From Candidatus Eiseniibacteriota bacterium (GTDB lineage: Bacteria > Eisenbacteria > RBG-16-71-46 > DASYSL01): DNA of 64,000 nucleotides. This document shows positions 10,630-47,765 of the stretch, one piece after another (the first letter of the stretch is position 1; every line of letters starts with the position of its first letter). The position numbers were made by a program, and so were the translations under genes. The notes beneath the pieces were generated by a model, which was not told the DNA's origin, did not search any database, and worked only from the letters and a program-made list of their open reading frames with translations. Where the stretch lies: contig DASYSL010000086.1 in NCBI GenBank assembly GCA_036003365.1, positions 1,258 through 65,257 of the forward strand, given 5' to 3'.

Positions 10630-10690
10630 CGCCCGTTCGTACCGTTCATACCGTTCGTACCGTTCGTACCGTCTTCGTCCCGTTACGGCC
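10630..10690. repeat. Tandem 9-bp repeat (ccgttcgta) of about 5 copies in the divergent ppdK/pepN intergenic region.
   Basis: 'cgttcgtaccgttcataccgttcgtaccgttcgtaccgtc'. It translates as SYRSYRSYR in the spurious upstream extension of the pepN track ORF. Confidence 0.6.
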
Positions 10691-10729
10691 CGTTCGTCCT
10701 CGATCGACAGCCCTCGACATGGAGGCACG

Positions 10730-13396: not shown

Positions 13397-13472
13397 TCGC
13401 CGGGCGCGAAGACCCGGTGGCCACGCCCGCTTCCGCGAGAGTGGTCACCGGCGCAGTCCTCGGCGAAGGCGC

Positions 13473-15217: not shown

Positions 15218-15243
15218 GTTCTCTCGCCTTTCGATGAATGCCC

Positions 15244-25209: not shown

Positions 25210-25244
25210 CCATGGATCAGCATGCGATTCGTTCGAGCGTGCGG

Positions 25245-30146: not shown

Positions 30147-33100
30147 TTAGTTGCCCGCCTGACCCAGGAGCACCATGCGCTGGCTGTTGTTCTGGAACTG
30201 CACGCCAGGAGCCGACAGGCGATAGAAGTACACGCCCGAGGCAGCCTTCGTGCCGCTCGAAGTGACGCCGTCCCAGCGATAGAGGTTGTCCGCGCCCACA
30301 TGACCCTCGACGGTCGCCTCATGCACGAGACGGCCCGCGACGTTGTAGAAGCGGATCGTGACCTTCGCCGGCTGAGCCAGCGAGAACCGCACCGACGCCG
30401 CACCCGCAACCGAGGGGTTGGGGAACGCGCCGCGCACGAAGTTCAGCGCCAGACCAGGAACGTCGCCCACGCCGATGACCGGGTTCACACGCGCGCACTG
30501 GTTGAACGCCGTCAACGCGTCGTTCATCCACTCGCGGCGACCGTAGTCGTTCGCGGCGATGTTCGACACCGCGGCAGTCGTCGGGTCCGAAGGACCACCC
30601 CAACCGCGCAGGTTGTCGAACGAGAAGCCGTCGAGCAGCGTGGCATAGAAGCGACCCGCGCCCGCGTCCAGACGACGATACACCGACGAATAGAACGGCC
30701 CAGCAGAGCCGGCACCACGGTCCGAGACGTCTTCGTAACGGGCCGCGCGCTCAGCACCGGGGACGCCACCATCGCGATCGATGATGTCGAGGATGCCCTG
30801 GCACGAGTTGAAGATGCCGTAACGGCGATTGGAGTGGAACGGATCGGCAGCACCCGGATCAGCATCCAGCGGCTTGAAGATGGCCACCGTCGACTGGTTC
30901 CCGGTGAAGTCGAAGTAGTTGTCCTGCACGAACAGGCCGCCCATGCGCGACAAGAGGATGCCGCACGAGGTTCCGGGCGAGGTGGCGAGATCCTGAGTCA
31001 GACCGTCACCGTTGCCCCAGAAGGCCTTCTCGTTCCCCGACGCCGCGCGGTCGAGCCACTGGTTGATCATACCCGCGTCGTCCGCCTGCTCCTGACCCGT
31101 GCCCGAGCCGTCATGCATGGCACCGGCCGACTCGTCGAGGTCCACGGAGTCCCAGATGATCGTGTTGTAGTAGCGGTCAAGCATGTCGACCGTCGGACCC
31201 TGCTTGCTCTGCCGGTCCGAAACGCCCGGATCGACACCGCCACCAGGGATGCGGCAACCAATACGGTCACCCTCTCCCGACTCGGAAGCGCGAATGTCGA
31301 ACTTGTCGTACGCCAGGCCCATCATGCCCAGGTTCGGCGACACGAAGCCGGCAGGATTGTTGACGTCGTTCGACGTGGCCACGGCCTTCCAGCCGCGGTC
31401 GGCGCCGTTGTCCGTGCCATAACCGAGCGAGTCGAGCGCGCCCACAACCGCGGGCTCGCCGCCGCGCCGGTCACCGGCATCGACGTAGAGCAAGCAAGCC
31501 AGACCGTTGCCGCCGAACCGCGTGTCCTTCCACATGTCGGGGAAGACATCGAAGCTGTCGAAACGGAGCTGGTCGAAGTAGCCGCCCATTCCGGTCTGCA
31601 GCGATACCGTCGTCGTATCCGGCGACATGTTCAGTAGCGCGTGCGTCCCGTCGGAAGCAGCCGAGCGACGGACGAAGTACTCGATGTGCGTACCGGGCGT
31701 GAACAGACCGTCCGGCAGAATCTTCGTGCCCTCTTTCGTCGTCGTACCCGCCGGATAACCATCACCGCTCGGCGGATAGGTCGTCCCGAGGGCCAAGCAT
31801 GAGGCCGGGTCGCAGCAGAGGTTCGACTGGTTGACCGGGCCGCTGAAATCGATCACGTAGCAGTAGCTGACCGTCTTGGCGAGCACGCCCGAATTGGCGC
31901 CGCCGTGCGGATCGGTCTCCTCGTAGGTGCCCTGCCAGTTGTCGGGCGCCGTCTGGCCGATGCTCTTGAACGCGACCGGATACAGCTGGGTCGCCTGAGC
32001 CGAGTCCATACGCGCCGAGTTCCACGTGTTGGGATCCCACTTGGTGCCGCTGTGGTGAGCGCCCGCACCCGCAGGGGTGCCTACATCACCGTCGTTGGCC
32101 ATGTACTGGCCCCAGAACGAACCGTCTCCAGGAACAGCCAGGTTGCCAGCAACGTTGCCCAGCGCCACGACCTTCAACAGCGCGCTGTTCACGTTGCCCT
32201 TGGTGGAGTAGTTGCCCGGACCCGGCTTGATACGGAAGACCAGGTCCATGCGCGCATCGGCGCCCGCCGAGGTGTAGAGGAGCGAGTCACCAGAGATGAC
32301 GCCCTCACCACCGCCCGTCTTGGCGTTGTTCAGACCGTCCTTCACCAGAGCGGTGACGGTGTCGAACCCAGCCGAGCCCGGAGCGATGCTCTCGTTGAAC
32401 GGGAACGTGTCGCCCAAGAGGAACCAGAAGAAGGTGCTCAGAGACGGCTTCGCAGCGCCGGCTCCGGTGATGAAGCCCATGCGGATGTTGTCCCAGTACG
32501 TGCCGTCGGTCTGACCGCACGCCGTCGCCGAGAAGCGGGCGCAGCGCGTCTGGTTCTCGACCGCAACCTTGACCGAGTCCGCGTGAGCGATGTTGATGAA
32601 GGCGCCGAGGTCGCCAGGATCCGAGTCGTACGTGACGCAGACCGGCGTGCCGTAGTCATTGATGGCGCCCAGTGTGTTGACCGAGGACCACTCGACGTTC
32701 GTCGGTCCCTCGACCTGCTTCTCACCCGAGTTCGCCAGTGCCGGGTCGTACTTCACTTGGATCGCGTACCAGAAGAACACGCCCGAGAGACCGGCATCGT
32801 CGAAGCCAGAGTAGAAGTCGAACTGGAGGTTCGTGTTGCTGGCATCCGTCCGCAGCGTCGGGGGAGTCCCCTGCGCCGTGGCACGGCCCGAGAGATCGTG
32901 CAGGACGATCGTCGGGCTGATGGACCAGTTCTGCGACTCGAGGTGGAACGTGTGCGCCGGGTTGGCGCCCTCGGGGTCGTGGTTGGACTGGACCAGGATG
33001 TTCTCGCTCAGGTTACAGAACAGCTTGCCGCAAGGATCGGCGAACGGCAGGTCGTTCTGGTTGTGAATGTGGCCGTAGTACGCGGGCGAGCGGCCCGACG

Positions 33101-34409
33101 TGATCCACGACGACGACGGCGAGTTCTCGACGAACGAGGCACCCGACCGCGTGAAGCGCGGCTTGATGTCGCTGGCCGACTCGAAGGTCGTCGTGCTGCC
33201 GTACACGCTCACGTTGTCGACCACGACTGCTCCGGTCGTGGAGTTCCACGCCGAGGCCGTCGGGGTGCTCGCGGGACGAGCGTCATCGAAGAAACGGTTC
33301 GTCTTGACGCGGAGGACGACGCGAACCGAGCTCCAGCCCGTGCCAGCCGGAATCGCCAGGGGGCCCGTATTGGCCGTCGGTGCGACGCCCGTCACGGAGA
33401 AGAGGAGCTTCGGCGCAGCGGCGCCGCCGAGACTGAAATCGAGCGCATCCGAAAGATAGCGGTGAGCCTTGTCATAGACTCCCGACTCCTTCGGGGCGCC
33501 GATCCATACTTCGAACGAGTCCACCGGCTCTGCACCCGAGTTGGCGAGGCAGACCAGGTTGGCGCTCGAGAACGGATCGGGGGTGAACCAGCCACCACCG
33601 TTGCCCGGAGAAGTGCCCGGATCCGTCGTCCCGCCGTTGTTCAGCTCGGGACGGTAATCCATCGAGATCGTTCCGGCGCCGGTGTAGGTGAAGTCCCTGT
33701 ACAGGAGCTGGTCCCACTGCGACGCGTAACCAGGCCAAGCGCTACGGATGTTCGACGAAGTCGCGCGGAAATCCACGTGCTCCTCGTCCGCCGTGTACTT
33801 GTTGTTGGTGTACGAATCGGTGGGAGCATTGGCATCACCGGACATGCGCAGACCGCACCAAGCCGATCCGTTGCCCGTGATGTTGCTGGCGAATCCAGGA
33901 GCCACGCGGCCCGTGTCAGGCACCGACGTGAGGTTGTCCTGGTGCCACACGCCGGCCAGACCGTGCATGCGCGTCGCGCGGCCGTTGGCGAAGCGATTGA
34001 CCGTGAGGTTGTGGTCGCCGTTGTTGATGTCGTTGCCGAAATCGTAGTACCAGAACGGCCGGCTTACGGTCGTCAGGTACTTCGTGGTGCCGTCCGACGC
34101 CTGCGGGGCCTGGACGAACTCCCAGAACTGGGAGGAGTCCGTGCCCGTGATGTCGCCGGCATAGTAGGGCGTATCGAAATCCCACTTGCCGCCCACACCG
34201 ACCTTGTTGGGATCGGTGCTCGACGCCAAGAAGCCGTACCAAACGGTGGCCGCGGCTGCGGTCGAGAATCCCGACCGATAGCGCGGGGCGTTCAGTGCCG
34301 GCTTCTTCACGGCAACGTCCTGGTCGGTGGTCTGCGCAAGGGCAAAGCCCTGGCCCAGAACCATCGTTCCCAGCACGAGGCCGAGAAGCAGAGCAAGGAA
34401 ACGACGCAT
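30147..34409 (-). CDS. Giant secreted protein (1420 aa) with T9SS/Por-type C-terminal sorting domain. No other domains recognised.
   Basis: Signal peptide MRRFLALLLGLVLGTMVLGQGFALAQ. C-terminal 'FPNPS...VRFSLAQPAKVTIRFYNVAGRLVHE...GVYFYRL...RMVLL'. ATG at 34409 with GGAGG 8 nt upstream. Confidence 0.8.
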   Translation of the reverse strand: MRRFLALLLGLVLGTMVLGQGFALAQTTDQDVAVKKPALNAPRYRSGFSTAAAATVWYGFLASSTDPNKVGVGGKWDFDTPYYAGDITGTDSSQFWEFVQAPQASDGTTKYLTTVSRPFWYYDFGNDINNGDHNLTVNRFANGRATRMHGLAGVWHQDNLTSVPDTGRVAPGFASNITGNGSAWCGLRMSGDANAPTDSYTNNKYTADEEHVDFRATSSNIRSAWPGYASQWDQLLYRDFTYTGAGTISMDYRPELNNGGTTDPGTSPGNGGGWFTPDPFSSANLVCLANSGAEPVDSFEVWIGAPKESGVYDKAHRYLSDALDFSLGGAAAPKLLFSVTGVAPTANTGPLAIPAGTGWSSVRVVLRVKTNRFFDDARPASTPTASAWNSTTGAVVVDNVSVYGSTTTFESASDIKPRFTRSGASFVENSPSSSWITSGRSPAYYGHIHNQNDLPFADPCGKLFCNLSENILVQSNHDPEGANPAHTFHLESQNWSISPTIVLHDLSGRATAQGTPPTLRTDASNTNLQFDFYSGFDDAGLSGVFFWYAIQVKYDPALANSGEKQVEGPTNVEWSSVNTLGAINDYGTPVCVTYDSDPGDLGAFINIAHADSVKVAVENQTRCARFSATACGQTDGTYWDNIRMGFITGAGAAKPSLSTFFWFLLGDTFPFNESIAPGSAGFDTVTALVKDGLNNAKTGGGEGVISGDSLLYTSAGADARMDLVFRIKPGPGNYSTKGNVNSALLKVVALGNVAGNLAVPGDGSFWGQYMANDGDVGTPAGAGAHHSGTKWDPNTWNSARMDSAQATQLYPVAFKSIGQTAPDNWQGTYEETDPHGGANSGVLAKTVSYCYVIDFSGPVNQSNLCCDPASCLALGTTYPPSGDGYPAGTTTKEGTKILPDGLFTPGTHIEYFVRRSAASDGTHALLNMSPDTTTVSLQTGMGGYFDQLRFDSFDVFPDMWKDTRFGGNGLACLLYVDAGDRRGGEPAVVGALDSLGYGTDNGADRGWKAVATSNDVNNPAGFVSPNLGMMGLAYDKFDIRASESGEGDRIGCRIPGGGVDPGVSDRQSKQGPTVDMLDRYYNTIIWDSVDLDESAGAMHDGSGTGQEQADDAGMINQWLDRAASGNEKAFWGNGDGLTQDLATSPGTSCGILLSRMGGLFVQDNYFDFTGNQSTVAIFKPLDADPGAADPFHSNRRYGIFNSCQGILDIIDRDGGVPGAERAARYEDVSDRGAGSAGPFYSSVYRRLDAGAGRFYATLLDGFSFDNLRGWGGPSDPTTAAVSNIAANDYGRREWMNDALTAFNQCARVNPVIGVGDVPGLALNFVRGAFPNPSVAGAASVRFSLAQPAKVTIRFYNVAGRLVHEATVEGHVGADNLYRWDGVTSSGTKAASGVYFYRLSAPGVQFQNNSQRMVLLGQAGN

Positions 34410-34539
34410 GTTGTCAGCCTCCAACGAGACGGCTCGAGTCCGCCTCTGAGAGTAGAGAGAACGACTCCCGGGAGGAGTATCCAGAAGAACAATCCGACGC
34501 GCCGGCTTCACCCGCCCGAGAACCTTGTCCGCTCGCAAT

Positions 34540-35112
34540 CCATCCGGCGACGACCCCGTTCCGGTGCGCGATGGCAGACATGGGTGAAGAGGATTTCGGT
34601 TTTCTCAAGGAACCGCCTCCGACTTCGCAATGCGTATGCATGCAATTGCGAGTGCGAGCGAGGTGTCGTTTCTGGTGGCGCATCCGGGAGAACGGAGAAA
34701 TCGAGCATTCGCCGACATGGATGCACCGGTGTGGCATCTTTGGAGAATCCGGCCTCGCATCACCCCTTTCCGAATCCATGATGGTGGTCGACTCCGAACG
34801 AATCGACGCGATTACGAGTGCGCGAATCACGTCGAAACACGTCCGCGTCCTCTCGCGAGGACGGAAGCAAGCCTTAGGGATGAAGATGAAGCCAAGTCCT
34901 GCACTCACCCCGGCAGCGATCGGAATCCATTCGACTGTTCCCAACTCCCATCGTCCGAAATGCGGCCCTTCGGGTCGGGCTGCTCGTCACGCCTCGGACA
35001 GGCGCGGGGGAATGCCACTGGGTGTAAAACAACACAACCGTAGGGTTTACATGATCATTGCGTCAAGCAGATTTTGCCTACAAACACCGTGCCAGCAGGT
35101 CGAAAGGGGAGT
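34540..35112. other. 570-bp non-coding region with noticeably lower GC, forming the long leader/promoter region of the giant secreted-protein gene. Contains a near-palindrome cgcaatgcgtatgcatgcaattgcg.
   Basis: Embedded ORFs have low GC3 unlike real genes here. The palindrome is at about 34626-34650. Confidence 0.5.
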
Positions 35113-36423
35113 TCACTGAGCGGTCAGGTGGCCGTCCTCGATCGCGTAACGCCGTGTGCGCCAAGCATCCAGACGCGGATCCTGGCTGGCCACGAGGGCC
35201 GCGCCACCGGTCGAAGCGAAGCGTCTCAAGGTGGTTTCGAGAACCGAAACTCCAGCTCGGTCGAGCCCCGTCGAGGGCTCGTCCAGAAGCCAGAGGCCGG
35301 CGTTCTGGGCCAGCAGTCCGGCCCACGCCGCGCGCCGCCGCTCGCCGTGACTGAGTGCTGTGGGCGGGCGCGCCCCATGCGCCGCCGGATCCAATCCCAC
35401 TTCGGCGAGCGCCGCACGCACGTCGCGCTCACGCTCGTGCCCGGAGCGCTTCGATCCCATCGCGACGTCTTCACCGACGGTCGTCGAGACGAGTTGGTCC
35501 TCGGGTGACTGCAGGAGCACGCCGAGGCGCGCGCTGCCTGCGAGCTCGATCGCGCCCTGTTGCGGCTCGAGGACGCCCGCGAGAAGCAGAAGAAGCGTCG
35601 TCTTGCCGGCGCCGCTCGCGCCCGTGAGCAGGACGATCTCCCCCGCTCCGATCTCGAGATCGACGCCGCACACGAGCGGTGTCGCAGGCGCGTATCCGAA
35701 CCCAAGTGAACGCGCGCGCAGGAGTGCGGGGCCAGGCGCGAACGATTCCAGTCCCCCGGCATCGCGCTCGAGCGGGTCATCCGTTGCCGCGGCGAGCCGG
35801 CCGCGCTCGAGCCTGAGCCGGCGATCGGCGGCCGCCCATTCTTCCTCGAGCTGGGTGACGAAAACGGCACCGCGGCCGCGCTCCACCTCGCGCCGCACCA
35901 GTGCCCGCAAGCGCTCGCGCGCGCGCGCGTCGAGATAGACGCCGGGCTCGTCGAGGACCAGATAGCGCGGATCGCCGGCGAGGGCGGCGGCCAGTCCGAG
36001 CCGGCTCTTCTCGCCGCCCGAGAGGCTCTGCGGCGTGCGGCCGGCGAGGGCGGCGAGATCGAATTCCTCGACCATCCGGCGCACACGCTCGCGGATGGCC
36101 GCGCGCTCCCAACCCAGATTCTCGAGCGGGAAGGCGATCTCTTCTTCGAGGGTGGGCGCGACCAGCTGGCCTTCGGGCTCCTGGAACACCATGCCCACGG
36201 CGCGCCGCCCGGGCTCGTGCGGGGCGAGCGCCACGCCATCGGCGAGCACGCTGCCGGCGCGCGGCCCCAGCAAGCCGGCCAGCGCCAGGCAGAAGAGACT
36301 CTTGCCGCCCCCGTTGGCGCCGGTCAGCGCCACCCACTCGCCGGGGGCGAGCGCGAAGTCGAGATCGCGGAGCACGAGCGGACCGCCCGGCGGCCCCACG
36401 GCCAGACCGCGCGCTTCGAGCAT
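35113..36423 (-). CDS. ABC transporter ATP-binding protein with two fused ATPase domains (ECF/CbiO-type energy-coupling module).
   Basis: Two Walker A motifs ('GANGGGKS', 'GASGAGKT'), two signature motifs ('LSGGEKSR', 'LSHGERRR') and two Walker B motifs ('LVLDEP', 'WLLDEP'). Confidence 0.8.
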   Translation of the reverse strand: MLEARGLAVGPPGGPLVLRDLDFALAPGEWVALTGANGGGKSLFCLALAGLLGPRAGSVLADGVALAPHEPGRRAVGMVFQEPEGQLVAPTLEEEIAFPLENLGWERAAIRERVRRMVEEFDLAALAGRTPQSLSGGEKSRLGLAAALAGDPRYLVLDEPGVYLDARARERLRALVRREVERGRGAVFVTQLEEEWAAADRRLRLERGRLAAATDDPLERDAGGLESFAPGPALLRARSLGFGYAPATPLVCGVDLEIGAGEIVLLTGASGAGKTTLLLLLAGVLEPQQGAIELAGSARLGVLLQSPEDQLVSTTVGEDVAMGSKRSGHERERDVRAALAEVGLDPAAHGARPPTALSHGERRRAAWAGLLAQNAGLWLLDEPSTGLDRAGVSVLETTLRRFASTGGAALVASQDPRLDAWRTRRYAIEDGHLTAQ

Positions 36424-36438
36424 GGCGGTTGGGGCTTT

Positions 36439-37620
36439 CTAGTGTCCGCCGTTCCAGGCGGCGAGGACGGATCGCGACAGCTCGAGCAGCGGAATGCCCG
36501 TCTTCTCGGCGAGGGCGGCGAGACTTTCGTACTCGGGCATGAGACGGCGCGTGCCGTCGGGCAGCAGGGCTTCCTTGGCGGCCACGCGCCCGTGCGGCGT
36601 GTCGATCTCCACCGCGCGCCGCGCCAGCTCGATCCGCTCCTCGCGGCGCACGCGCACACCGAGCGTGGGCGACTCGCGGAAGAGCAGGCCGGCCAGCGCG
36701 TCCTCCTGCCCGGGATCGCACAGGCAGGTGACGAGGATGCCCGGCCGTCCCTTCTTCATCTGAATGGCCGTGAGGAAGGCGTCGCGCGCGCCGGCCGCGA
36801 GGAGCCCCGGCACCAAGGTGGCGATGACTTGCGGCGAGGCGTCGTCGAGCGCGGTCTCGAGCACCATGACCGTGCGGCGGCCGAGCCCCGGCTCCGCGCC
36901 TTCGGACGTGTCGCCGACGAAGAGCCGGAGCACGTTGGGCTGCTCGGCGAGATCGCGTCCGCCGGCGCCCACGCCCTGGGCCCGGACGCGAAACGCAGGC
37001 GCCCATCCCCAGCGGCGGACGAGCGTGGTGAGAAGCGCAGCCCCCGTGGGCGTCACCAATTCGGCCTGCACGTCGGGCATCTCCACCGGCACGCCGCGCA
37101 GAAGCTCGGCGGTGGCCGGCGCCGGCACCGGCAGCACGCCGTGCTCGGTCTGCACGCGGCCGCGCCCCAGCGGCAGCGCCGAGGCGTAAACCTCCTCGAC
37201 ACCGAGACTCTCGAGACCCCAGCAGGTGCCGACGAAATCGATCAGCGCGTCGACCGCGCCGACCTCGTGAAAGTGAATCTTGTCCACCGTCGTGCCGTGA
37301 ACCTTGGCCTCGGCCTCGGCGAGCCGCTCGAAGGCGCTCATGGCCCGCGTCTTGGCTCGCTCGGGCACGTCGGCCGCCATCACGCGCTCGCGCACCTGGT
37401 GCAGGTGGCGCGTGGGCTGGGCTTGGCCCACGTCCACGCTCACGCGCGCCGCCTCGATGGCGCCGCGGCGGGCCCGCCCCACGCTCACCGTCACGCCGCT
37501 CAAGCCGAGCTTCTGGGGCAAGGACTCGAGCTCCGCTTGGGCCCAACCGGCGTCGACCAAGGCACCCAAGAGCATGTCGCCGCTGGCGCCCGAGAAGCAG
37601 TCGAAGTAGGCGACGATCAC
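36439..37620 (-). CDS. larC: LarC, nickel-pincer cofactor Ni-insertion protein (DUF111).
   Basis: N-terminal 'AYFDCFSGASGDMLLGALVDAG'. GTG start with GGAGAAA upstream, overlapping the larB TGA (GTGA). Confidence 0.8.
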   Translation of the reverse strand: MIVAYFDCFSGASGDMLLGALVDAGWAQAELESLPQKLGLSGVTVSVGRARRGAIEAARVSVDVGQAQPTRHLHQVRERVMAADVPERAKTRAMSAFERLAEAEAKVHGTTVDKIHFHEVGAVDALIDFVGTCWGLESLGVEEVYASALPLGRGRVQTEHGVLPVPAPATAELLRGVPVEMPDVQAELVTPTGAALLTTLVRRWGWAPAFRVRAQGVGAGGRDLAEQPNVLRLFVGDTSEGAEPGLGRRTVMVLETALDDASPQVIATLVPGLLAAGARDAFLTAIQMKKGRPGILVTCLCDPGQEDALAGLLFRESPTLGVRVRREERIELARRAVEIDTPHGRVAAKEALLPDGTRRLMPEYESLAALAEKTGIPLLELSRSVLAAWNGGH

Positions 37621-38390
37621 GCGCCGTTTCTCCGCGCGCTGCGCCCGCGCCGCGCGGCGAGCGCGTTGACGCGATGGGCGGCGAAGGCGGCGCCGAATCC
37701 ATTGTCGATGTTGACCACGGCGACGCCGGGCGCGCACGAGTTGAGCATGCCGAGCAAGGCGGCGAGCCCATGGAAGGAGGCGCCGTAGCCCACGCTCGTG
37801 GGCACGGCGAAGACCGGCCGCGCGGTGAGGCCGCCGACCACGCTGGGGAGCGCCCCTTCCATGCCCGCGACCACGATCACCGCGTTGGCGGCGCGCACGC
37901 TCGGGCTCTTGAGAAGGATGCGGTGCAACCCCGCCACGCCCACGTCCACCAGGCGCTCGACGCGGCTGCCCAGCGCGCGCAGCGTCTCGACCGCCTCCTC
38001 GGCCACCGGAAGATCGGAGGTCCCGGCCGAGACCACGCATACGCGACCGAGCGCGGCCGGGGCCCGGCCCACGAAAACGGTGCGCGCGCGATCGTTCACG
38101 CGCGCCTCCGGAAAGACGCCGACGAGGGCGGCCCGCGTGTCCTCGCTCGCGCGCGTGATCAGGCAGCGGCCGGCGCGGCGCACGATGCGGCGCGCGATCT
38201 CGACCACCTGCGCGGGCGTCTTGCCCGCCGCGTACACGACCTCGGGCGCGCCGGTGCGGCGCTTGCGGTCGTGATCGAGGGTGGCGTACGGCAAAGCATC
38301 GCCGCCGCCATTCTGGAGAAGGCGCGCCAGCAGCTTCTCGAGCGGCTCGCCGCGGCGGGCGCCGCGGCCGGCGCCGCCGCGCGACTTCAC
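37617..38390 (-). CDS. larB: LarB, PurE-like pyridinium-3,5-biscarboxylic acid mononucleotide synthase.
   Basis: 'TLDHDRKRRTGAPEVVYAAGKT', 'SAGTSDLPVAEEA', 'VVAGMEGALPSVVGGL' and 'LNSCAPGVAVVNIDNGFGAAF' match LarB throughout. The GTG start overlaps the dus TGA. Confidence 0.85.
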   Translation of the reverse strand: MKSRGGAGRGARRGEPLEKLLARLLQNGGGDALPYATLDHDRKRRTGAPEVVYAAGKTPAQVVEIARRIVRRAGRCLITRASEDTRAALVGVFPEARVNDRARTVFVGRAPAALGRVCVVSAGTSDLPVAEEAVETLRALGSRVERLVDVGVAGLHRILLKSPSVRAANAVIVVAGMEGALPSVVGGLTARPVFAVPTSVGYGASFHGLAALLGMLNSCAPGVAVVNIDNGFGAAFAAHRVNALAARRGRSARRNGA

Positions 38391-39442
38391 ACGCCGACCG
38401 GCTCGCTCCACGCTTCCTCCACGCGGTATCCCTCGCCGCTCTCGAGCCGGCCCAAGTAAGAGAGGAGAAGCTCTTCGATCTCGACCGCGGTGGTGGCGCG
38501 GTTGGCGCTCTCCTTCACGGTCGCGGCGCGCGGCAGACCCTTCAGGTACCAGGCCACGTGCTTGCGCATCTCGCGCACGGCCACCGACTCGCCCACCACC
38601 GTCGCCAGGAGTCCGAGCTGGCGCAGGCAGCCTTCCATGCGCTCGCGCGGCGTCGCCGGCGCCACGACGCGCCCGTGGTCGAGCAGGGCGCGAGTCTCGC
38701 GGAAGATCCACGGATTGCCGAAGGCGGCGCGTCCGATCATCACCCCCGCCGCCCCGGTCTCGTTCAACAAACGCACGGCCTCGGAGGCCGAGGTCACGTC
38801 ACCGTTGCCGACCACCGGAATCGACACCGCAGCCTGCGCGTCGCGAATCATGTCCCAGTTGGCCTTGCCCTCGAAGCCCTGCGAGCGCGTGCGCGCGTGC
38901 ATGGCCACCAGCGCCACCCCCGCGGCCGCGAAGAGGCGCGTCACCTCGACGCCGTTCTGTTGCGAATTGTCCCACCCGCAGCGCGTCTTGGCGGTGACCG
39001 GAAGCGTGCTCGCCCCGACCACGGCGCGCACCACGTCCTCGAGCAGAGGCAGATTGCAGAGCAGCGCGGCGCCAGCCTCCCGCGTCACGACTTTATGCAC
39101 GGGGCAGCCGATGTTGAGATCGACGAAGTCGGGACGCACCTCTTCCGGCAGGTCGCACACGATGCGCGCCGCCTCGGCCATCACCGCCGGATCGGAGCCG
39201 AAGAGCTGCACGCCCATGGGCCGCTCGGCGGGATAGAAATGGAGATAGCGAAGCGTCTTCCGGTTGCCGCGCACGAGCCCGTCGGCGCTCACCAGCTCGG
39301 TGCACACCGAGGCCGCCCCCTGCTCGCGACAGAGCAGGCGGAAAGGCGCGTCGCTCACGCCCGCGAGCGGCGCGAGCATGACCGGCGAGGCGAGGGTGAT
39401 GGGTCCCAGCTTCAGGGGACGAAGGTCGGCAATGGACGACAA
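38387..39442 (-). CDS. tRNA-dihydrouridine synthase (Dus family). Putative TTG start.
   Basis: 'LAPLAGVSDAPFR', 'VDLNIGCPVHKV' (catalytic Cys) and 'MHARTRSQGFEGKANWD' are Dus/FMN TIM-barrel motifs. Confidence 0.8.
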   Translation of the reverse strand: MSSIADLRPLKLGPITLASPVMLAPLAGVSDAPFRLLCREQGAASVCTELVSADGLVRGNRKTLRYLHFYPAERPMGVQLFGSDPAVMAEAARIVCDLPEEVRPDFVDLNIGCPVHKVVTREAGAALLCNLPLLEDVVRAVVGASTLPVTAKTRCGWDNSQQNGVEVTRLFAAAGVALVAMHARTRSQGFEGKANWDMIRDAQAAVSIPVVGNGDVTSASEAVRLLNETGAAGVMIGRAAFGNPWIFRETRALLDHGRVVAPATPRERMEGCLRQLGLLATVVGESVAVREMRKHVAWYLKGLPRAATVKESANRATTAVEIEELLLSYLGRLESGEGYRVEEAWSEPVGV

Positions 39443-39476
39443 GGCGGTTTCCGATCGCGCGCGATGGACGATACCG

Positions 39477-40229
39477 TCATGAGGCGTCGCCGGCGCCTCG
39501 CGCGGCAGCGTCGACGCCGGAACTATAGCCGCTGGGCCCGAAGCCGGGCCAGCCCTCGGCGCGCGCCACGTCGGACAAGGTGGTGAACGCGCGCGCCCCG
39601 ATCCCGTTCGCCAGGCACCACGGCAAGAGATCGTCCTTGGCGTACACGACGTCGGCAGCACCGGCGCCGCAGCGATCGGAAAAGCCGTCGCCAACCAGGA
39701 GCACGCGGCGAAAACGTCCGCTCTGCTTGGCCTCGCGCACCCAGGCGCCCTTGCAGTGGCCACACGCCCCGCAGCCCGGGGCCGCATCCGCGCGCGCGCG
39801 CGCCACGCGGCCGTCGGCGAATCTCACTTCGGGTCCCGAGGACCCATACTCGGGCAGCGGCCCGCGCTCGCCGAAGAGCATGCGGTTGGCGCGAAACGGC
39901 ACCTCGAGCGAGGCTCGCGCCAGCAGGATCTCGATGTAGAAGGAGAGTCCGTCCGAAGCCACCGCGACCTCGTGTCCGGCGGCCCGCGCCGCCGCCACGA
40001 AGGGGCGCGCATCCGGGACCAGCGCGAAGTCGCGCACGAAGGCGTGCGCCGCCTCCTCCCCCAGTCCCGGCGCCAGCTCGCACTCGCGCGCCAGGCACTC
40101 GCGCGAGGTGATGCGTCCTTCCTTCCACTCGGCGATGAGGCGCGTCCAGCGCTCGGGATCCTGGCCGAAGCGGCGGAACAAACGGTTGCCGATGTCGGCG
40201 CCGGCCAGCGTTCCGTCGAAATCGACCAC
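39477..40229 (-). CDS. HAD-superfamily phosphatase (MtnX-like). Start uncertain, GTG at 40229 or up to about 40283.
   Basis: HAD motif I 'VVDFDGTL' and motif IV 'VGDGFSD'. Confidence 0.65.
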   Translation of the reverse strand: MVDFDGTLAGADIGNRLFRRFGQDPERWTRLIAEWKEGRITSRECLARECELAPGLGEEAAHAFVRDFALVPDARPFVAAARAAGHEVAVASDGLSFYIEILLARASLEVPFRANRMLFGERGPLPEYGSSGPEVRFADGRVARARADAAPGCGACGHCKGAWVREAKQSGRFRRVLLVGDGFSDRCGAGAADVVYAKDDLLPWCLANGIGARAFTTLSDVARAEGWPGFGPSGYSSGVDAAARGAGDAS

Positions 40230-40279
40230 GACGAAGTCGCGCGCGGCCGTGTCTTCGTGTGTCAGAGGAGCGGGTCCGC

Positions 40280-41854
40280 TCAGTGGAGCATCGAGAGCTT
40301 GAGCAGCTCGCGCGGCGCGCGGGCGCGGCGCACCAGATCGATCGCCTTCTGCAGCATCACGTCCTGCTCGGACGCGACGCGGAAGGCGGCCTGATCGCCA
40401 CCCAGGCGGCGCGCGATCTCGCGGTGCACGGCATTGTCGAGATAGGCGCGCTGCGCCGCGAGTGAGTCGGGCGCCGTCTTGAACTTCTGCTGGCTGAGAT
40501 AGGCCGTGAAGGTGGGCCACAAGGCTTGCGACGACGCCTGCTCGAGGGTGACGCCGGGGTGAGAAGCGACGTAGTGATTGGCGAACTGGAAGAGCAGCGC
40601 GCGACGCTCGATCTCGAGCGCCGGATTGGCGAGCGTGTCGGGATGGATCAGGACGTCGGGCGTGATGCCGCCGCCGCCGTACACGACGCGCCCCGAATCG
40701 GTCTTGAACTTGGGCTTGTTGGCCTTCGACGTGGTGTCGGCCGGGGGTGCGGCGTCGTCATCTTCGTCCGCGGACTCCTCGCCGATCTTCGCGTTGTAGG
40801 CGTCTTTGTGAATCGAGCGGCCGCTCGGCGTGTAGTACTTGGCCGTGGTCAGCTTGAGCGCCGCCTTGGTGCCCGGCAGGTTGAGCAGGCTCTGCACCGA
40901 GCCCTTGCCGAACGTGGGCTCGCCCACCACCAGGGCGCGGTCGTGATCCTGCAGCGCGCCCGAGACGATCTCGGCCGCCGACGCGGTGAACTCGTCCACC
41001 AGGACGACGATGGGCTGCGTGAGGTTGGGACGCGTCTCCTCGGCGTAGAACGTCTGGTCGGAGTTGGGCGCGCGCCCGCGCGTCTGCACCACGACGGCGC
41101 CCTTGGGCAGGAAGCGCTCGGACACGTCCACCGCTTCCGACAGGAGCCCGCCGGGATTGCCGCGCAGATCGAGCACGATGCCCTTGGCGCCTTCCGACTG
41201 CAGCGTGTTGAGCGCGTCGGTCAGCTCGTCGCCGCTCGTCGCCGAGAAGCTCGAGAGGCGGATGTAGCCCACGCCGCCCGAGAACAGATTGGTGTAGGGA
41301 ATGCTCTTCACGTGGATGATGCGGCGCGTCACGGTCACCGAGCGCGGGGCATCTTCGTCCACGCCTTGCACCTGGATCATCACCTTGGTGCCTTCTTCGC
41401 CGCGCAGCTTGGAAACCACCTCGTCGATCGCCAGACCGCGCGTCGACTTGTTCTCGATCTCCACGATGCGGTCGCCGGGCAGGATGCCGAGCGAGGCGGC
41501 GGGCGTGCCCTCGAGCACCGAGATCACCGTCGGCCAGTTGTCACGCACGCTGACCACGATGCCGAGGCCGCCGAACTGACCCTGCGTCTGCACGGTCAGC
41601 TCTTCGTTGGACTTGGCATCGAGGTAGTTCGAGAAGGGATCGAGCCGCTTCATCATGCCGTTGATGGCGCCGGTGACGAGCTTCTGCGGATCGACCGGAT
41701 CGACGTAGTAGGACTCGACCTTGGACAGCGCGTCGACGAAGAGATCGAGCTTTTCGTAGCGGTCGCGAGCCTGCGCGCGGCTCCAGCCGAACATCCAGCC
41801 GGCGACGAACAAGACGACGAGAAGGGCTCCCAATCCCAGGCGGCGACGGATCAT
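40280..41854 (-). CDS. ctpA: Carboxyl-terminal processing protease (S41A, CtpA/Prc-like) with PDZ domain and N-terminal TM anchor.
   Basis: 'LDLRGNPGGLL', 'GEPTFGKGSVQ' (catalytic Ser) and a PDZ 'GLGIVV...GILPGDRI' segment. Confidence 0.85.
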   Translation of the reverse strand: MIRRRLGLGALLVVLFVAGWMFGWSRAQARDRYEKLDLFVDALSKVESYYVDPVDPQKLVTGAINGMMKRLDPFSNYLDAKSNEELTVQTQGQFGGLGIVVSVRDNWPTVISVLEGTPAASLGILPGDRIVEIENKSTRGLAIDEVVSKLRGEEGTKVMIQVQGVDEDAPRSVTVTRRIIHVKSIPYTNLFSGGVGYIRLSSFSATSGDELTDALNTLQSEGAKGIVLDLRGNPGGLLSEAVDVSERFLPKGAVVVQTRGRAPNSDQTFYAEETRPNLTQPIVVLVDEFTASAAEIVSGALQDHDRALVVGEPTFGKGSVQSLLNLPGTKAALKLTTAKYYTPSGRSIHKDAYNAKIGEESADEDDDAAPPADTTSKANKPKFKTDSGRVVYGGGGITPDVLIHPDTLANPALEIERRALLFQFANHYVASHPGVTLEQASSQALWPTFTAYLSQQKFKTAPDSLAAQRAYLDNAVHREIARRLGGDQAAFRVASEQDVMLQKAIDLVRRARAPRELLKLSMLH

Positions 41855-41993
41855 GAGGCCGGTTTCCCAATCCTTTCGAGTATGGGCCTAAGGGCCGGCC
41901 GCGCCTGGTGCGCGCACACCAACCTTGAAGGGAAGCCTAGCATAGAGATCGGCCGGGAATGCCACGGGCTTATGGCCCAAGTCCGGCTTTCAG

Positions 41994-42653
41994 TCAGGTT
42001 TTCGGAAATCCAGTCCCCGCCGCGGTTTGGCGCGAGGCGCGGCGCAGGATCTCGGCCTCGATCGTGTCGGCGAGCTCGGCCGAGGGCGATTCCGCGGCCA
42101 AGACGAGCCAGCGCCCGGGCTCGGCCTTGGCCAGCTCGAGGTAGGTGTTGCGCACCCGCTCGAAGAAGGCCACCGGCTCCGACTCGAAGCGATCGAGAGC
42201 GGCACGGGCCCGCAGCCGCTCGAGCGCGTGCGCCGGCGCGAGATCGAGCAGCACCGTGAGATCGGGCGCGAGGGCGCCGGTGGCGAGCCGGTTCAGCGCG
42301 GCGATCTGCGCGCGCTCGACGCCCGATCCTCCGCCCTGATAGGCGAGCGAAGCGTCGGCGTGGCGGTCGCAGAGCACGACGCGCCCGGCGGCGAGCGCCG
42401 GACGAATGACTTGGCGCACGTGCTCGGCGCGGTCGGCGACCATGAGCAGGGTCTCGACCAGGGGATCGGATCCGCGTTCACGGCGCGCCAGCAAGAGAGC
42501 CCGGAGCGACTCCCCCAGGGGGGTGCCGCCGGGCTCACGTGTGACCGCGACCTCGAGACCGCGCGCCCGCAAGCGCTCGGCCGCGAGCGCGACTTGCGTC
42601 GACTTGCCCGTGCCCTCGATGCCCTCGAAGGTGACGAAGAGACCGCGCGGCAC
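41994..42653 (-). CDS. tmk: Thymidylate kinase.
   Basis: 'FVTFEGIEGTGKST' P-loop, 'REPGGT', 'DRHADASLAYQG'. Confidence 0.9.
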   Translation of the reverse strand: MPRGLFVTFEGIEGTGKSTQVALAAERLRARGLEVAVTREPGGTPLGESLRALLLARRERGSDPLVETLLMVADRAEHVRQVIRPALAAGRVVLCDRHADASLAYQGGGSGVERAQIAALNRLATGALAPDLTVLLDLAPAHALERLRARAALDRFESEPVAFFERVRNTYLELAKAEPGRWLVLAAESPSAELADTIEAEILRRASRQTAAGTGFPKT

Positions 42654-42664
42654 GGAGCGCGTCT

Positions 42665-43930
42665 TTAGCTGCGCGACTTGGTCAGCGTGCGCTTCGTCTT
42701 CTTGCGCTTGGTGGCGCGGGCCTTGCCGGGACGCCCGTTGGCGCTCACGCGTCCATTCATCGACGGACCGCTCTCACGCGCGCCGGAGCCGGTGGCCGCC
42801 TGCATCTTCACGCGCACCTGCACGGGACCGGTCGGGGCCGGCGTCTTGCCCTTCTTGTGGCCGTAGGTGCGGATGTAGTCCTCGACCATCTCGCGCGCCT
42901 GGTCGTCGGGGAACTGCTGCGGCGGCGACTTCTTGAAGTACGCCGAGGGCGCGAGCAGAGCGCCCTTGAGCCCGTGGTCCAGGCCCAGCTTGGCGCAGCG
43001 CACGGCGTCGATCACCACGCCGGCCGAGTTGGGCGAGTCCCAGACCTCGAGCTTGGCCTCGAGCGTGAGCGGCACATCGCCGAAGGTCGTGCCCTCCATG
43101 CGGATGTGGCACCACTTGCGGTCGAGCAGCCAGGGCACGTAGTCGGAAGGGCCGACGTGCACGTTCTCCGCGTCCATCGCGTAAGGAATCTGGCTCGTGA
43201 CCGCGTTGGTCTTGGAGATCTTCTTCGACTCCAGGCGCTCGCGCTCGAGCATGTTCAAGAAGTCGGTGTTGCCGCCGAAGTTGAGCTGGTAGGTGCGGTC
43301 GATGCGCACGCCGCGGTCGACGAACAGGCGCGCCAGCACGCGGTGCGCGATGGTGGCGCCGACCTGCGACTTGATGTCGTCGCCGATGACCGGCAAGCCA
43401 CGCTGCTCGAAGCGGCGCTGCCAGTAGCGCTCGCGGGCGATGAACACCGGGATGCAGTTGACGAAGGCGCAGCCGGCGTCAAGCACCTGCTCGACGTACC
43501 ACTTGGTCGCCTCCTCCGAGCCCACCGGGAGATAGTTCACCACCACGTCGGTGCCCGTGTCCTTGAGCAGCTTGACGATGTCGACGGTCGAGCCCGGCGC
43601 CTTCTGGATGATCTGCGACAGGTACTTGCCGAGACCGTCGTGAGTCATGCCGCGCTGCACCTTGATGCCGGTGCGGGGGACGTCGGCGAAGCGATACGTG
43701 TTGTTGGGCGTGGTGTAGATCGCTTCGGCGAGATCCTTGCCGACTTTGTTCTTGTCGATGTCGATGGCGGCGGAGAACTCGACGTCCTTCACGTGGTAGC
43801 CGCCCAGGTTCACGTGCATGAGGCCCGGCACTCGGTCCGTGTCCTTGGCGTTCTTGTAGTAGTGAACACCCTGGACGAACGACGAGGCGCAGTTGCCCAC
43901 GCCGATGACGGCGACTCTGACCTTTCCCAT
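42665..43930 (-). CDS. myo-Inositol-1-phosphate synthase (bacterial/archaeal short type) with a roughly 60-aa Lys/Arg-rich C-terminal tail.
   Basis: '[18 protein letters not shown]' NAD-binding N-terminus and MIPS core motifs ('NGSPQNTFVPG'-like region '[11 protein letters not shown]'). Tail '[20 protein letters not shown]'. Confidence 0.8.
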
Positions 43931-43975
43931 GGGGAAACCTTCCTCCGGTAAGGCGCGTCGTGTTCGCGCTTGCTC

Positions 43976-44692
43976 TTAGAGGGCGCTGCGTCCCGACCGC
44001 GGGGACGGCTGCGCCAGGTGGCGTCGCACGTAGAGCACGCGCTGCACCACGGTGATCCAGCTCATGATCGCCAGGAAGAGGAGGGCGAACTCCATCCACA
44101 CGCCGACGCCGAAGAGCGCCGCGCCGAGCAGGACGATCAACCGCTCCGGGCGCTCGAACCACCCCACCTTGCACTCCAGGCCCAGCCCTTCGGCCCGAGC
44201 CCGCGTGTAGGAAACCATGTACGCCCCCGCCAGCGCCAGTAGGCCCGAGAGACCCACGAGCCAGTCGTTGACGGGCTCGCTTCCGAGGTACTTGGACTCC
44301 AGGACGTTGGAGATGGTCGAGGCGGTGAGGACGGGCAGGTAGAAGTAGTAAGCGCTCACCCCCAGGAGCAGCAAGGTGTCGCTGATCCGGTCGACCGTGG
44401 AGTCGAGGAAAGCGCCGAAGCGTGTCTCCTTGCCGCGCTCGCGGGCCACCGGCCCATCCAAGGCGTCGAGCAGCGATCCGCCGATCGCCCACAGAGCCCC
44501 GATGGTGAAGCGGCCGTGCGAGATTTCGACCGCGCCGATGCCGGTGAGCACGAGTCCGGCCCAGGTGAGGACGTCGGGACTCACCCCGGTGCGCGCGAGC
44601 CCCCGGGCCACCGGCTGGAGCCAGCCGCGCACACGATCGCGACCGCCCTGCTTCCAGCGCGTCGCCGCTCCTTCGGCGGGCTCGCGACTCAC
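43976..44692 (-). CDS. CDP-alcohol phosphatidyltransferase, likely phosphatidylinositol-phosphate synthase given its MIPS neighbour. The GTG start overlaps the rsmI TGA.
   Basis: 'DALDGPVAR' D-x2-DG-x2-AR motif and TM helices. Adjacent to the inositol-1-phosphate synthase gene. Confidence 0.65.
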   Translation of the reverse strand: MSREPAEGAATRWKQGGRDRVRGWLQPVARGLARTGVSPDVLTWAGLVLTGIGAVEISHGRFTIGALWAIGGSLLDALDGPVARERGKETRFGAFLDSTVDRISDTLLLLGVSAYYFYLPVLTASTISNVLESKYLGSEPVNDWLVGLSGLLALAGAYMVSYTRARAEGLGLECKVGWFERPERLIVLLGAALFGVGVWMEFALLFLAIMSWITVVQRVLYVRRHLAQPSPRSGRSAL

Positions 44693-47431: not shown

Positions 47432-47765
47432 GCGTTCCTCTCTGCGCAGGCCTTGCCAGGCCGCGCGAAGGTCCGTGGGGCTCGGAGGATGAGCTCCGGG
47501 TCCCGGTTGGGCGGCCGCTGGCTCCTTGTGGGAGATGCCGTCGCTGAGGCGCGGGCCGCGAGTCCTCGGGGGGCAAGGGGCGGCAGGATTCGCCGGTGGG
47601 CCTGCGTTGACCCACTCCGAGGGCGTTGATAGCCTCCGTACAGCAAACGCAAACAATGTACCGAGTGAATGACTCCCCGGCAACCCGCTCGAAGCCTCGA
47701 ACGGGCGCCTTGCACGGTCGCGGTCGGGCCGCGTAAGTCACCATCGAATCAGGAGCAAGCGCGAG

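What the first reader, a model, noticed from the sequence alone, without database searches (positions are those of the whole stretch)
35113..39442. larB-larC embedded with dus and a fused double-ATPase ABC gene, without larA or larE
LarB and LarC (nickel-pincer nucleotide cofactor biosynthesis) are confidently recognisable and coupled by GTGA overlaps to an upstream tRNA-dihydrouridine synthase. A 436-aa tandem-ATPase ABC protein of ECF/CbiO type follows. No LarE sulfur transferase, no LarA racemase and no ECF membrane components are in the window. Either they are elsewhere, or LarB/LarC serve a different NPN-dependent enzyme. The compact double ATPase lacking its T/S partners is also odd.
Basis: established knowledge. 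Interest (0 to 1): 0.5.

Follow-up and report, generated by a model that had tools for sequence, protein, structure and literature searches.

The report
Scattered nickel-pincer genes plus orphan ATPase
Two intact genes for making the nickel-pincer cofactor sit in a housekeeping operon of an uncultured Eisenbacteria genome, behind a tRNA-modification gene and ahead of an unusual fused ATPase; the missing partner genes are most likely just elsewhere in the genome, which is the usual situation.

Summary
On the minus strand lie dusB (38387-39442), larB (37617-38390), larC (36439-37620) and a 436-aa tandem ABC ATPase (35113-36423). The dusB/larB and larB/larC junctions are GTGA overlaps. No LarE, LarA or ECF membrane gene is in the 64 kb window. 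This absence is not unusual. Among 43 larC loci from other genomes with at least 5 kb on both sides, only 10 have larE within 10 kb and 28 have neither larB nor larE. Published surveys put about 15% of genomes at larBCE without larA, and a LarA homologue from an Eisenbacteria MAG is in the literature. LarB and LarC keep every catalytic residue checked, so this is most likely a normal, scattered NPN pathway. Two things are new but modest. First, dusB-larB translational coupling recurs in Zixibacteria and Gemmatimonadota. Second, the ATPase belongs to a small clade found only downstream of larC in this lineage. It is a shortened derivative of an orphan fused EcfA-like family, and both switch histidines are replaced by glutamine. 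Its role is inferred, not shown: probably an ECF-type energising module, perhaps for nickel. Whether larE exists in this genome could not be tested.

The parts
38387..39442 (-). dusB, tRNA-dihydrouridine synthase B (351 aa from TTG 39442; the start is somewhat uncertain)
   Evidence: PF01207 at 276 bits and TIGR00737 at 353.7 against a cut-off of 293.3. The best PDB hit is E. coli DusB 6EI9 at 198 bits, aligned from query residue 9. The NIGCP catalytic Cys, K..R, H.RTR, NGD and GR..G.PWIF motifs are kept.
37617..38390 (-). larB, NaAD carboxylase/hydrolase (257 aa from GTG 38390; an alternative GTG at 38411 follows a GGAGGA)
   Evidence: NF033503 at 276 against a cut-off of 175. 229 bits to L. 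plantarum LarB 7MJ0 over the full length. Cys219, Ser125 and Asp126 align with Cys221, Ser127 and Asp128. GTGA overlap with the dus stop codon.
36439..37620 (-). larC, CTP-dependent nickel insertase (393 aa, fused LarC1+LarC2)
   Evidence: PF01969 at 442 bits, with the LarC1 and LarC2 NCBIfam models above their cut-offs. 335 bits to full-length M. thermoacetica LarC 12BI. D15, R71, H72, E104, H108, H116, H118, E119, D124, D128, H160 and E187 are all conserved. GTGA overlap with the larB stop codon.
35113..36423 (-). abc2, fused tandem ABC ATPase of EcfA-EcfA' type. It is compact (no C-terminal domains) and has Gln in place of the switch His in both halves (Q191, Q414). The C-half signature is LSHGE.
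   Evidence: Two PF00005 domains. The N half matches ECF_ATPase_1 best and the C half matches cbiO/ECF_ATPase_2 best. The AF2 model has pLDDT 91.9 and pTM 0.87 and is a closed tandem-NBD fold. It lies immediately downstream of larC in 7 of 7 clade members examined.
36424..36438 (-). 15-nt larC-abc2 spacer
   Evidence: Read directly. The spacer is 8-30 nt in relatives.
39477..40229 (-). HAD-IB phosphatase gene directly upstream of dus. It is the conserved upstream neighbour of (dus-)larB in the Eisenbacteria relatives.
   Evidence: PF12710, and TIGR01488 at 67 against a cut-off of 45. Present in L003, L005 and the contig of P0009; in L003 it directly precedes larB.
34413..35112 (.). about 700-nt non-coding gap that ends the operon and precedes the next gene (a giant T9SS-sorted protein)
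   Evidence: No credible ORF. Sequence blocks are conserved in L005, L002 and L003. No Rfam family matched.

Best explanation
This is the tail of a long co-directional housekeeping gene string (ctp, HAD phosphatase, dusB, larB, larC, abc2) in a Candidatus Eisenbacteria MAG.

LarB and LarC are catalytically intact enzymes for steps 1 and 3 of nickel-pincer nucleotide (NPN) synthesis. LarB carboxylates and hydrolyses NaAD. LarC performs the CTP-dependent nickel insertion. The step-2 sulfur transferase LarE and the NPN-using enzyme (a LarA homologue or a non-LarA user) are encoded elsewhere in the genome. This is inferred, and it is the normal layout among related larC loci.

The dusB-larB translational coupling is an inherited operon arrangement shared with Zixibacteria and Gemmatimonadota. 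It ties larB expression to a housekeeping gene. It does not mark Dus as an NPN enzyme.

The tandem ATPase is a lineage-specific, shortened descendant of an orphan fused EcfA-EcfA' family and is co-transcribed with larC. Most likely it is still the ATP-binding module of an ECF-type importer whose membrane parts lie elsewhere. By analogy with LarO of the L. plantarum lar(MN)QO nickel transporter, it may supply nickel to LarC. Because both switch histidines are lost, slow ATP turnover is predicted. The transporter role and the nickel link are inference only.
For: - Family scores are above curated cut-offs for LarB, LarC and DusB.
- All catalytic residues checked are conserved.
- Survey of 80 GTDB larC loci: of 43 with at least 5 kb on both sides, larE is near in 10, larB in 14, and neither in 28. 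larB-larC without larE occurs in 5 of 14.
- About 15% of genomes have larBCE without larA (PMC11796402).
- An Eisenbacteria LarA homologue, HSR24722.1, is listed in PMC12611868.
- dus-larB with overlaps or gaps of 4 nt or less occurs in Zixibacteria L035, in 9 of 80 metagenomic larB loci, and in the Gemmatimonadales MAG L168.
- The ATPase halves match ECF_ATPase_1 and cbiO/ECF_ATPase_2 best.
- Relatives fused to a CbiQ/EcfT domain exist: P0031, P0092 and P0115 carry PF02361.
- The N-half AFPLENLGW block after the Q-loop is invariant, as are Walker A, Walker B and the Q-loop.
- Spacing to larC is tight, whereas a gap of about 700 nt follows the ATPase.
Against: - larE, larA and any ECF T/S gene were not found. 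The rest of this genome could not be searched, so 'elsewhere' is untested.
- Neither ATPase half reaches any family cut-off on its own, and the ECF equivalog cut-offs are missed.
- Both switch His residues are Gln in 20 of 20 clade members, against His in the C half of 34 of 35 outgroup proteins. The C-terminal domains typical of EcfA are absent. This could mean a non-transport role.
- No membrane partner lies within about 10 kb in any relative.
- The whole block, including the downstream giant gene, is syntenic throughout the clade. Adjacency of abc2 to larC may therefore be inheritance rather than function.
Confidence: 0.6

Rival explanations
1. The genome has no LarA homologue. LarB and LarC (with a LarE elsewhere) make NPN for a non-LarA enzyme, such as an AKR-type NphT-like hydride transferase or another misannotated NAD(P)-type enzyme.
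For: - About 15% of genomes have larBCE but no larA, against about 9% with larA (PMC11796402).
- AKR-type NphT and an NPAD-dependent ornithine cyclodeaminase show that non-LarA users exist (PMC13524815).
- No LarA cluster appeared near larC or larB in any of the 160 loci fetched in the two surveys.
Against: - A LarA homologue from a Candidatus Eisenbacteria MAG is published.
- No AKR or OCD gene is in the window.
- This reading is compatible with the main explanation apart from the identity of the user enzyme.
Confidence: 0.4
2. ABC2 is not a transporter subunit. It is a soluble ATP-binding accessory factor that works with LarC, for example in nickel delivery or turnover of the insertase. This would be comparable in kind to the tandem-ABC A2 component that activates the nickel enzyme methyl-coenzyme M reductase.
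For: - It is strictly downstream of larC in 7 of 7 clade members, down to 44-45% identity.
- It is found next to larC in no other lineage.
- Changes specific to this clade: loss of the second switch His, an LSHGE signature, and loss of both C-terminal domains.
- No membrane partner lies nearby.
- The AF2 model is a self-contained closed NBD dimer. The MCR A2 component (8S7V_K) is the second-best structural match, with TMq 0.85.
Against: - The structural match is generic to closed tandem NBDs: DppD, OppD and EttA score alike.
- There is no special sequence similarity to A2.
- The ECF-type Q-loop/helical-subdomain motif is conserved.
- LarC works without any such factor in L. plantarum, M. thermoacetica and Synechocystis systems (PMC11796402, PMC13510736).
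- Synteny inertia explains the adjacency equally well.
Confidence: 0.15
3. The neighbours have no functional tie to NPN at all. dus, HAD and abc2 sit beside larBC only because gene order in this lineage is very stable.
For: - About 20 kb around the locus is syntenic in all relatives, from threonine aldolase to the giant T9SS protein.
- Elsewhere larC sits beside unrelated housekeeping genes: metG-tatD in six loci from several phyla, and rlmI in Zixibacteria.
- dus is missing between HAD and larB in L003.
- The wider ATPase family is orphan in unrelated contexts.
Against: - 4-nt start/stop overlaps between dus and larB persist across three phyla with different flanks.
- The larC-abc2 spacer stays at 8-30 nt while abc2 diverged to 44% identity.
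- abc2 acquired clade-specific changes only in the lar-linked lineage.
Confidence: 0.3
4. The lineage truly lacks LarE. Sulfur insertion is done by another PP-loop enzyme, for example the diverged NadE-like protein at 45540-46364, which by family adenylates the nicotinate carboxylate of the LarB substrate NaAD. Alternatively, a sulfur-free pincer is made.
For: - No LarE in 64 kb here or within 10 kb in the relatives.
- The NadE-like gene lies in the same conserved block.
- It scores only 162 bits against the 255-bit cut-off of the NAD+ synthase equivalog PRK13980.
Against: - It passes the nadE domain model (113 against 63.65), and its only resemblance to LarE is the generic PP-loop.
- It is 7 kb and seven unrelated genes away from larB.
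- Every bacterium needs a NadE.
- larE is absent near larC in most genomes that are not suspected of lacking it.
Confidence: 0.05

Closest known systems
Lactiplantibacillus plantarum lar locus (larA-larB-larC1C2-glpF1-larE plus larR-lar(MN)QO)
   Same: LarB and LarC are clear orthologues with conserved catalytic residues. An ABC ATPase of CbiO/ECF type (LarO there, ABC2 here) is genomically associated with the nickel insertase.
   Different: There is no larA, larE, larR or membrane LarMNQ here. larC is a single fused gene with no frameshift. The ATPase is a fused tandem protein with both switch His residues replaced. The genes are embedded in a housekeeping string behind dusB.
Group II ECF transporter energising module EcfA-EcfA'-EcfT, including the fused 'duplicated ATPase' components (from my knowledge of Rodionov et al. 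2009)
   Same: The order is an EcfA1-like N half then an EcfA2-like C half. The Q-loop and the AFxLEN motif are conserved. Relatives fused to CbiQ/EcfT exist.
   Different: No EcfT is adjacent. Both roughly 60-aa C-terminal domains are missing (436 aa against 500-620 aa). The switch His is Gln in both sites. The ECF equivalog score cut-offs are not reached.
Degenerate nucleotide-binding sites of heterodimeric ABC exporters (TM287/288, TAP1/2; from my own knowledge)
   Same: A His-to-Gln change in the switch loop and a deviant signature motif are the classic marks of a non-hydrolytic site.
   Different: In those systems only one of the two sites is degenerate. Here both switch positions are Gln, while both Walker B glutamates are kept.
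E. coli dusB-fis operon (from my own knowledge)
   Same: dusB serves as the upstream, translationally linked leader gene for a functionally unrelated downstream gene.
   Different: The downstream gene here is larB. The arrangement occurs in FCB-type phyla, not in Proteobacteria.
MCR activation component A2 (tandem ABC ATPase, PDB 8S7V chain K)
   Same: It is a soluble fused double-NBD protein that acts on a nickel-cofactor enzyme, with a similar overall fold (TMq 0.85).
   Different: There is no specific sequence relationship. The structural similarity is shared with all closed tandem NBDs. No evidence shows that ABC2 is soluble or touches LarC.

Membership tests
LarB (pyridinium-3,5-biscarboxylic acid mononucleotide synthase) | Score above the curated equivalog cut-off (NF033503) | tested here: met
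   276.2 bits against a cut-off of 175.
LarB (pyridinium-3,5-biscarboxylic acid mononucleotide synthase) | Catalytic Cys221 and the Ser127/Asp128 region of L. plantarum LarB | tested here: met
   Cys219, Ser125 and Asp126 align in a full-length alignment to 7MJ0.
LarB (pyridinium-3,5-biscarboxylic acid mononucleotide synthase) | NaAD carboxylation/hydrolysis activity | not testable with these tools
   Needs an enzyme assay or a Duet-system complementation.
LarC (NPN nickel insertase) | LarC1 and LarC2 models above their cut-offs | tested here: met
   TIGR00299 at 209.1 against 90, and NF052512 at 125.2 against 50.
LarC (NPN nickel insertase) | His cluster (H72, H108, H116, H118, H160) and acidic pocket (D15, R71, E104, E119, D124, D128, E187) shown to be essential in LarC of M. 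thermoacetica | tested here: met
   All twelve residues are identical at the aligned positions (residue list from PMC13510736).
DusB (tRNA-dihydrouridine synthase B) | Equivalog score, plus the catalytic Cys and the FMN-site motifs | tested here: met
   TIGR00737 at 353.7 against 293.3. The NIGCP, K.R, H.RTR, NGD and GR..G.PWIF motifs align with E. coli DusB 6EI9.
ECF transporter ATPase (EcfA/EcfA', CbiO) | Score above the curated cut-offs | tested here: inconclusive
   The cbiO subfamily model is passed only by the sum of both halves (257 against 211.8); the halves alone score 140.5 and 121.6. ECF_ATPase_1 and ECF_ATPase_2 score 242.7 and 233 against cut-offs of 315 and 330.
ECF transporter ATPase (EcfA/EcfA', CbiO) | A cognate T component (EcfT/CbiQ), with or without an S component, encoded with it | tested here: not met
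   None is in the 64 kb window or within about 10 kb in six relatives. The rest of the genome was not searchable.
ECF transporter ATPase (EcfA/EcfA', CbiO) | Canonical catalytic motifs, including the switch His | tested here: not met
   Walker A, Walker B and the Q-loop are intact. The switch residue is Gln at positions 191 and 414, and the C-half signature is LSHGE.
LarE (sacrificial sulfur transferase), tested on the PP-loop gene at 45540-46364 | TIGR00268 above its cut-off | tested here: not met
   27.2 bits against a cut-off of 150. It fits nadE TIGR00552 instead (113.1 against 63.65). The LarE HMM matches only the PP-loop, at 17.5 bits.
Complete lar (NPN) system | larB, larC and larE plus an NPN-using enzyme in one genome | not testable with these tools
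   Only this window and 10-kb flanks of relatives could be read.

The most novel reading that the evidence does not exclude
The lar-linked, double-Gln tandem ABC protein is a new fourth component of nickel-pincer cofactor biosynthesis in Eisenbacteria. On this reading it is a soluble ATP-binding partner of LarC that gates or drives nickel insertion, rather than a transporter subunit.
Probability: 0.1. Interest if true: 0.7.

Novelty: new variant of a known kind. Interest (0 to 1): 0.3.

Why it matters
The lar genes themselves add only another lineage to a widespread, already characterised pathway.

Two side results may be useful to specialists.
- dusB-larB translational coupling is conserved across Eisenbacteria, Zixibacteria and Gemmatimonadota. 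I found no paper mentioning both genes. It may help predict how NPN synthesis is expressed in these uncultured phyla.
- A small clade of fused ECF-like ATPases is always downstream of larC. Both switch histidines are replaced in this clade. It is a natural test case for what an ABC dimer does without the switch histidine in either site, and a candidate link between nickel supply and LarC.

Neither result changes current understanding unless the ATPase turns out to act directly on LarC.

Tried and rejected
- **Reaching the source contig beyond the window.** The exact-protein look-up returned only a 3.9-kb Logan contig. The 71-kb NCBI contig was not retrievable.
- **Finding larE or larA in Eisenbacteria.**
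It returned only two Eisenbacteria loci (L005, L022), neither with larE.
  - A LarE or LarA query to the protein database was judged pointless, because only the 120 best hits are listed and there is no taxon filter.
  - I recalled the L. plantarum LarA sequence and confirmed it against 5HUQ (945 bits). The aim was to reach the His-to-Asn LarA subfamily that includes the published Eisenbacteria protein. Those PDB entries (9Q2U, 9Q3J) rank too low for their sequences to be printed, so this route ended.
- **No LarA-like cluster** emerged from all-against-all clustering of ORFs in the loci fetched in the two surveys.
- **Dus as a hidden NPN enzyme** (by analogy with TIM-barrel AKR NphT): rejected, because all DusB catalytic and FMN motifs and the equivalog score are intact.
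- **A riboswitch or known RNA** in or around the operon: no Rfam hit at gathering thresholds in the whole window, and only a spurious miRNA hit in the 700-nt gap. The gap RNA folds no better than shuffles (z = -1.2).
- **Promoter and terminator scans** of 34000-42200 gave nothing above the shuffled expectation.
- **Counting switch residues** in the 150 best representatives by automated pairwise alignment is noisy. Only the QQ, QH and HH classes are trusted.


Full report
**Source and gene calls**

The window has about 68% G+C, so raw ORF lists are full of spurious frames. Third-position GC singles out one minus-strand series through the finding: 35113-36423, 36439-38040, 37617-38711 and 38387-39787. 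Junction sequences and start candidates give the following genes:
- dusB, 38387-39442 (TTG start);
- larB, 37617-38390 (GTG start);
- larC, 36439-37620 (GTG start);
- the ATPase, 35113-36423 (ATG start).

The dus/larB and larB/larC junctions are true GTGA overlaps, in which the start GTG shares TG with the stop TGA. larC and the ATPase are 15 nt apart. The exact ATPase protein is on record as 'MAG TPA... Candidatus Eisenbacteria bacterium', on a 71,267-nt contig.

**Identity of the genes**

| Gene | Model | Score (bits) | Cut-off (bits) |
|---|---|---|---|
| larB | NF033503 | 276 | 175 |
| larC | LarC1 | 209 | 90 |
| larC | LarC2 | 125 | 50 |
| dusB | TIGR00737 | 354 | 293 |

- LarB aligns end to end with L. 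plantarum LarB (7MJ0, 229 bits). The catalytic Cys and the Ser/Asp pair are kept.
- LarC aligns over its full length with the cryo-EM structure of M. thermoacetica LarC (335 bits). It keeps all twelve histidine-cluster and acidic-pocket residues whose substitution reduced or nearly abolished activity in PMC13510736.
- The Dus protein aligns with E. coli DusB (6EI9) and keeps the catalytic Cys and the FMN-site motifs. I therefore reject the idea that it is a disguised NPN enzyme.

**What is absent**

Every plausible ORF in the 64 kb window was scanned against Pfam or NCBIfam. No LarA, LarE, CbiM, CbiQ/EcfT, AKR or ornithine cyclodeaminase was found.

I then built a LarE HMM from 16 larE genes that flank larB/larC in other phyla. 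Four of them were confirmed as TIGR00268 at more than 300 bits. Searched against the six-frame translation, it found only the PP-loop of a gene at 45540-46364, at 17.5 bits. That gene is a NAD+ synthase by family: TIGR00552 scores 113 against 63.65, while LarE scores only 27 against 150. A hydropathy scan found no unannotated polytopic membrane ORF.

**Is the absence unusual?**

It is not. A scan of one genome per species with the window's LarC returned 80 loci from many phyla. Of the 43 with at least 5 kb on both sides:
- larE lies within 10 kb in 10;
- larB lies within 10 kb in 14;
- neither is present in 28;
- 5 of the 14 larB-larC pairs have no larE nearby.

The literature agrees.
- About 15% of genomes have larBCE without larA (PMC11796402).
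- Non-LarA NPN enzymes are now known (PMC13524815).
- PMC12611868 lists a LarA homologue, HSR24722.1, from 'Candidatus Eisenbacteria'.

I could not search the rest of this genome, so the presence of larE remains inferred.

**Conservation of the arrangement**

Relatives at 44-87% ATPase identity all carry larB-larC-abc2 followed by a long gap and a giant T9SS-sorted protein. HAD and dus lie upstream, except in L003, where dus is missing. About 20 kb is syntenic in total, which weakens any functional reading of adjacency within the lineage.

Outside the lineage the picture differs. A second kind of Eisenbacteria locus (L022) has larC beside metG-tatD, as do five loci from other phyla.

**dus-larB coupling**

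This is the most robust new point.
- In Zixibacteria (L035, 43% GC) the order is dus-larB-larC-rlmI, with a divergent gene upstream.
- Nine of 80 metagenomic larB loci, all high-GC, have dus immediately before larB, often with a 4-nt overlap. A GAF-GGDEF gene follows and no larC is nearby.
- A Gemmatimonadales MAG shows guaA, dus, larB and GGDEF with 4-nt overlaps.

The coupling therefore persists across three phyla with different flanks. Because Dus is canonical, I read this as an inherited expression arrangement, comparable to dusB-fis in E. coli (from my own knowledge). No paper in the library mentions both genes.

**The ATPase**

- *Family fit.* Each half is most like ECF ATPases: the N half matches ECF_ATPase_1 and the C half matches cbiO/ECF_ATPase_2. 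Neither half reaches a cut-off alone, and the ECF equivalog cut-offs are missed.
- *Wider family.* Homologues form a wider family of fused proteins of 500-620 aa in Latescibacteria, Gemmatimonadota and others. These are orphan in the three contexts examined. Some more distant relatives are fused to a CbiQ/EcfT domain.
- *Switch residues*:

| Position | lar-linked clade (20 proteins) | Outgroup (35 proteins) |
|---|---|---|
| N-half switch residue | Gln in 20 | Gln in 27, never His |
| C-half switch residue | Gln in 20 | His in 34 |
| C-half signature | LSHG in 19 | LSGG in 29 |

- *Size.* The clade proteins are also 60-180 aa shorter than the wider family, because they lack the C-terminal domains.
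- *Rarity.* Among the 150 best representatives of 1.84 billion protein clusters, the Gln/Gln state was seen only in the four representatives of this clade. This is a rough count.
- *Intact motifs.* Walker A, Walker B (including both glutamates), both Q-loops and the N-half AFPLENLGW block are invariant.
- *Structure.* The AF2 model is confident (pLDDT 91.9, pTM 0.87) and shows a closed tandem NBD. Its best structural matches are ATP-bound DppD, the MCR A2 component, OppD and EttA. This is generic similarity, not evidence of function.

**Mechanism and how sure I am**

- *Shown.* The genes, their intact catalytic motifs, their coupling, and their conservation.
- *Inferred.* (a) larE and a user enzyme lie elsewhere. 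(b) The ATPase still serves an ECF-type importer, possibly for nickel, by analogy with larO. (c) Its ATP turnover is slow.
- *Rivals.* A soluble LarC partner (about 0.15). No functional link to the neighbours at all (about 0.3). A non-LarA user enzyme (about 0.4, which is compatible with the main view). True absence of LarE (about 0.05).

**Verdict**

This is an ordinary, scattered lar locus in a little-studied phylum. It has two modest novelties: the conserved dus-larB coupling and a lar-linked double-Gln tandem ATPase clade. Interest is 0.3.

Noticed in passing
window 45540-46364 (-): A NadE-like PP-loop gene is joined by a GTGA overlap to the upstream threonine aldolase gene (46361-47683). 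It passes the nadE domain model but scores far below the NAD+ synthase equivalog (162 against 255), and its YGD-region motif is altered. By family its substrate is NaAD, which is also the LarB substrate. It is syntenic in L002, L003, L005 and the contig of P0009.
   Followed up: partly
window 34413-35112: A non-coding gap of about 700 nt lies between abc2 and the giant secreted-protein gene. Several blocks are invariant across four Eisenbacteria loci (e.g. AACGACACCTCGCTCGCA and CGCATTGCGA). Near its start is a TTG...TAnnTTTG-like element of Bacteroidetes promoter type. No Rfam family matched, and the fold z-score is -1.2.
   Followed up: partly
window 30147-34412 (-), and 24196-29722 (-): A protein of about 1,420 aa has no recognisable domain except a C-terminal T9SS sorting domain. 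It is followed by three proteins (648, 844 and 418 aa) with no Pfam match; the last of them has T9SS-tail similarity. The set is conserved downstream of abc2 in all relatives.
   Followed up: no
L009, L020, L022, L025, L062, L071 (about 10000-15300 in each): larC lies directly upstream of metG, tatD and a polyprenyl synthase in six loci. They come from Acidimicrobiia, Dormiibacterota, Eisenbacteria, Acidobacteriaceae and Vicinamibacterales. This is another recurrent placement of larC among translation and housekeeping genes.
   Followed up: no
window 39477-40229 (-): An HAD-IB (MtnX-like) phosphatase starts almost at its DxD motif and carries a CGACGHC cysteine cluster. It is the conserved gene directly upstream of (dus-)larB in Eisenbacteria relatives only.
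   Followed up: no
window 42665-44875 (-) and 4554-5492 (-): The window holds an inositol-3-phosphate synthase, a phosphatidylinositol-phosphate synthase-like CDP-alcohol transferase, and a second CDP-alcohol phosphatidyltransferase. This suggests inositol phospholipid synthesis in this FCB-group bacterium.
   Followed up: no
L090, L134, L146, L159, L168, L169 (gene after larB): In the Gemmatimonadota-like dus-larB loci, the gene overlapping the larB stop codon is a GAF-GGDEF diguanylate cyclase instead of larC.
   Followed up: partly
L002 5000-10000: The gene calls for ctp, HAD, dus, larB and larC are fragmented into short pieces in this 211-kb contig. This probably reflects frameshift errors in the assembly rather than pseudogenes.
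   Followed up: no
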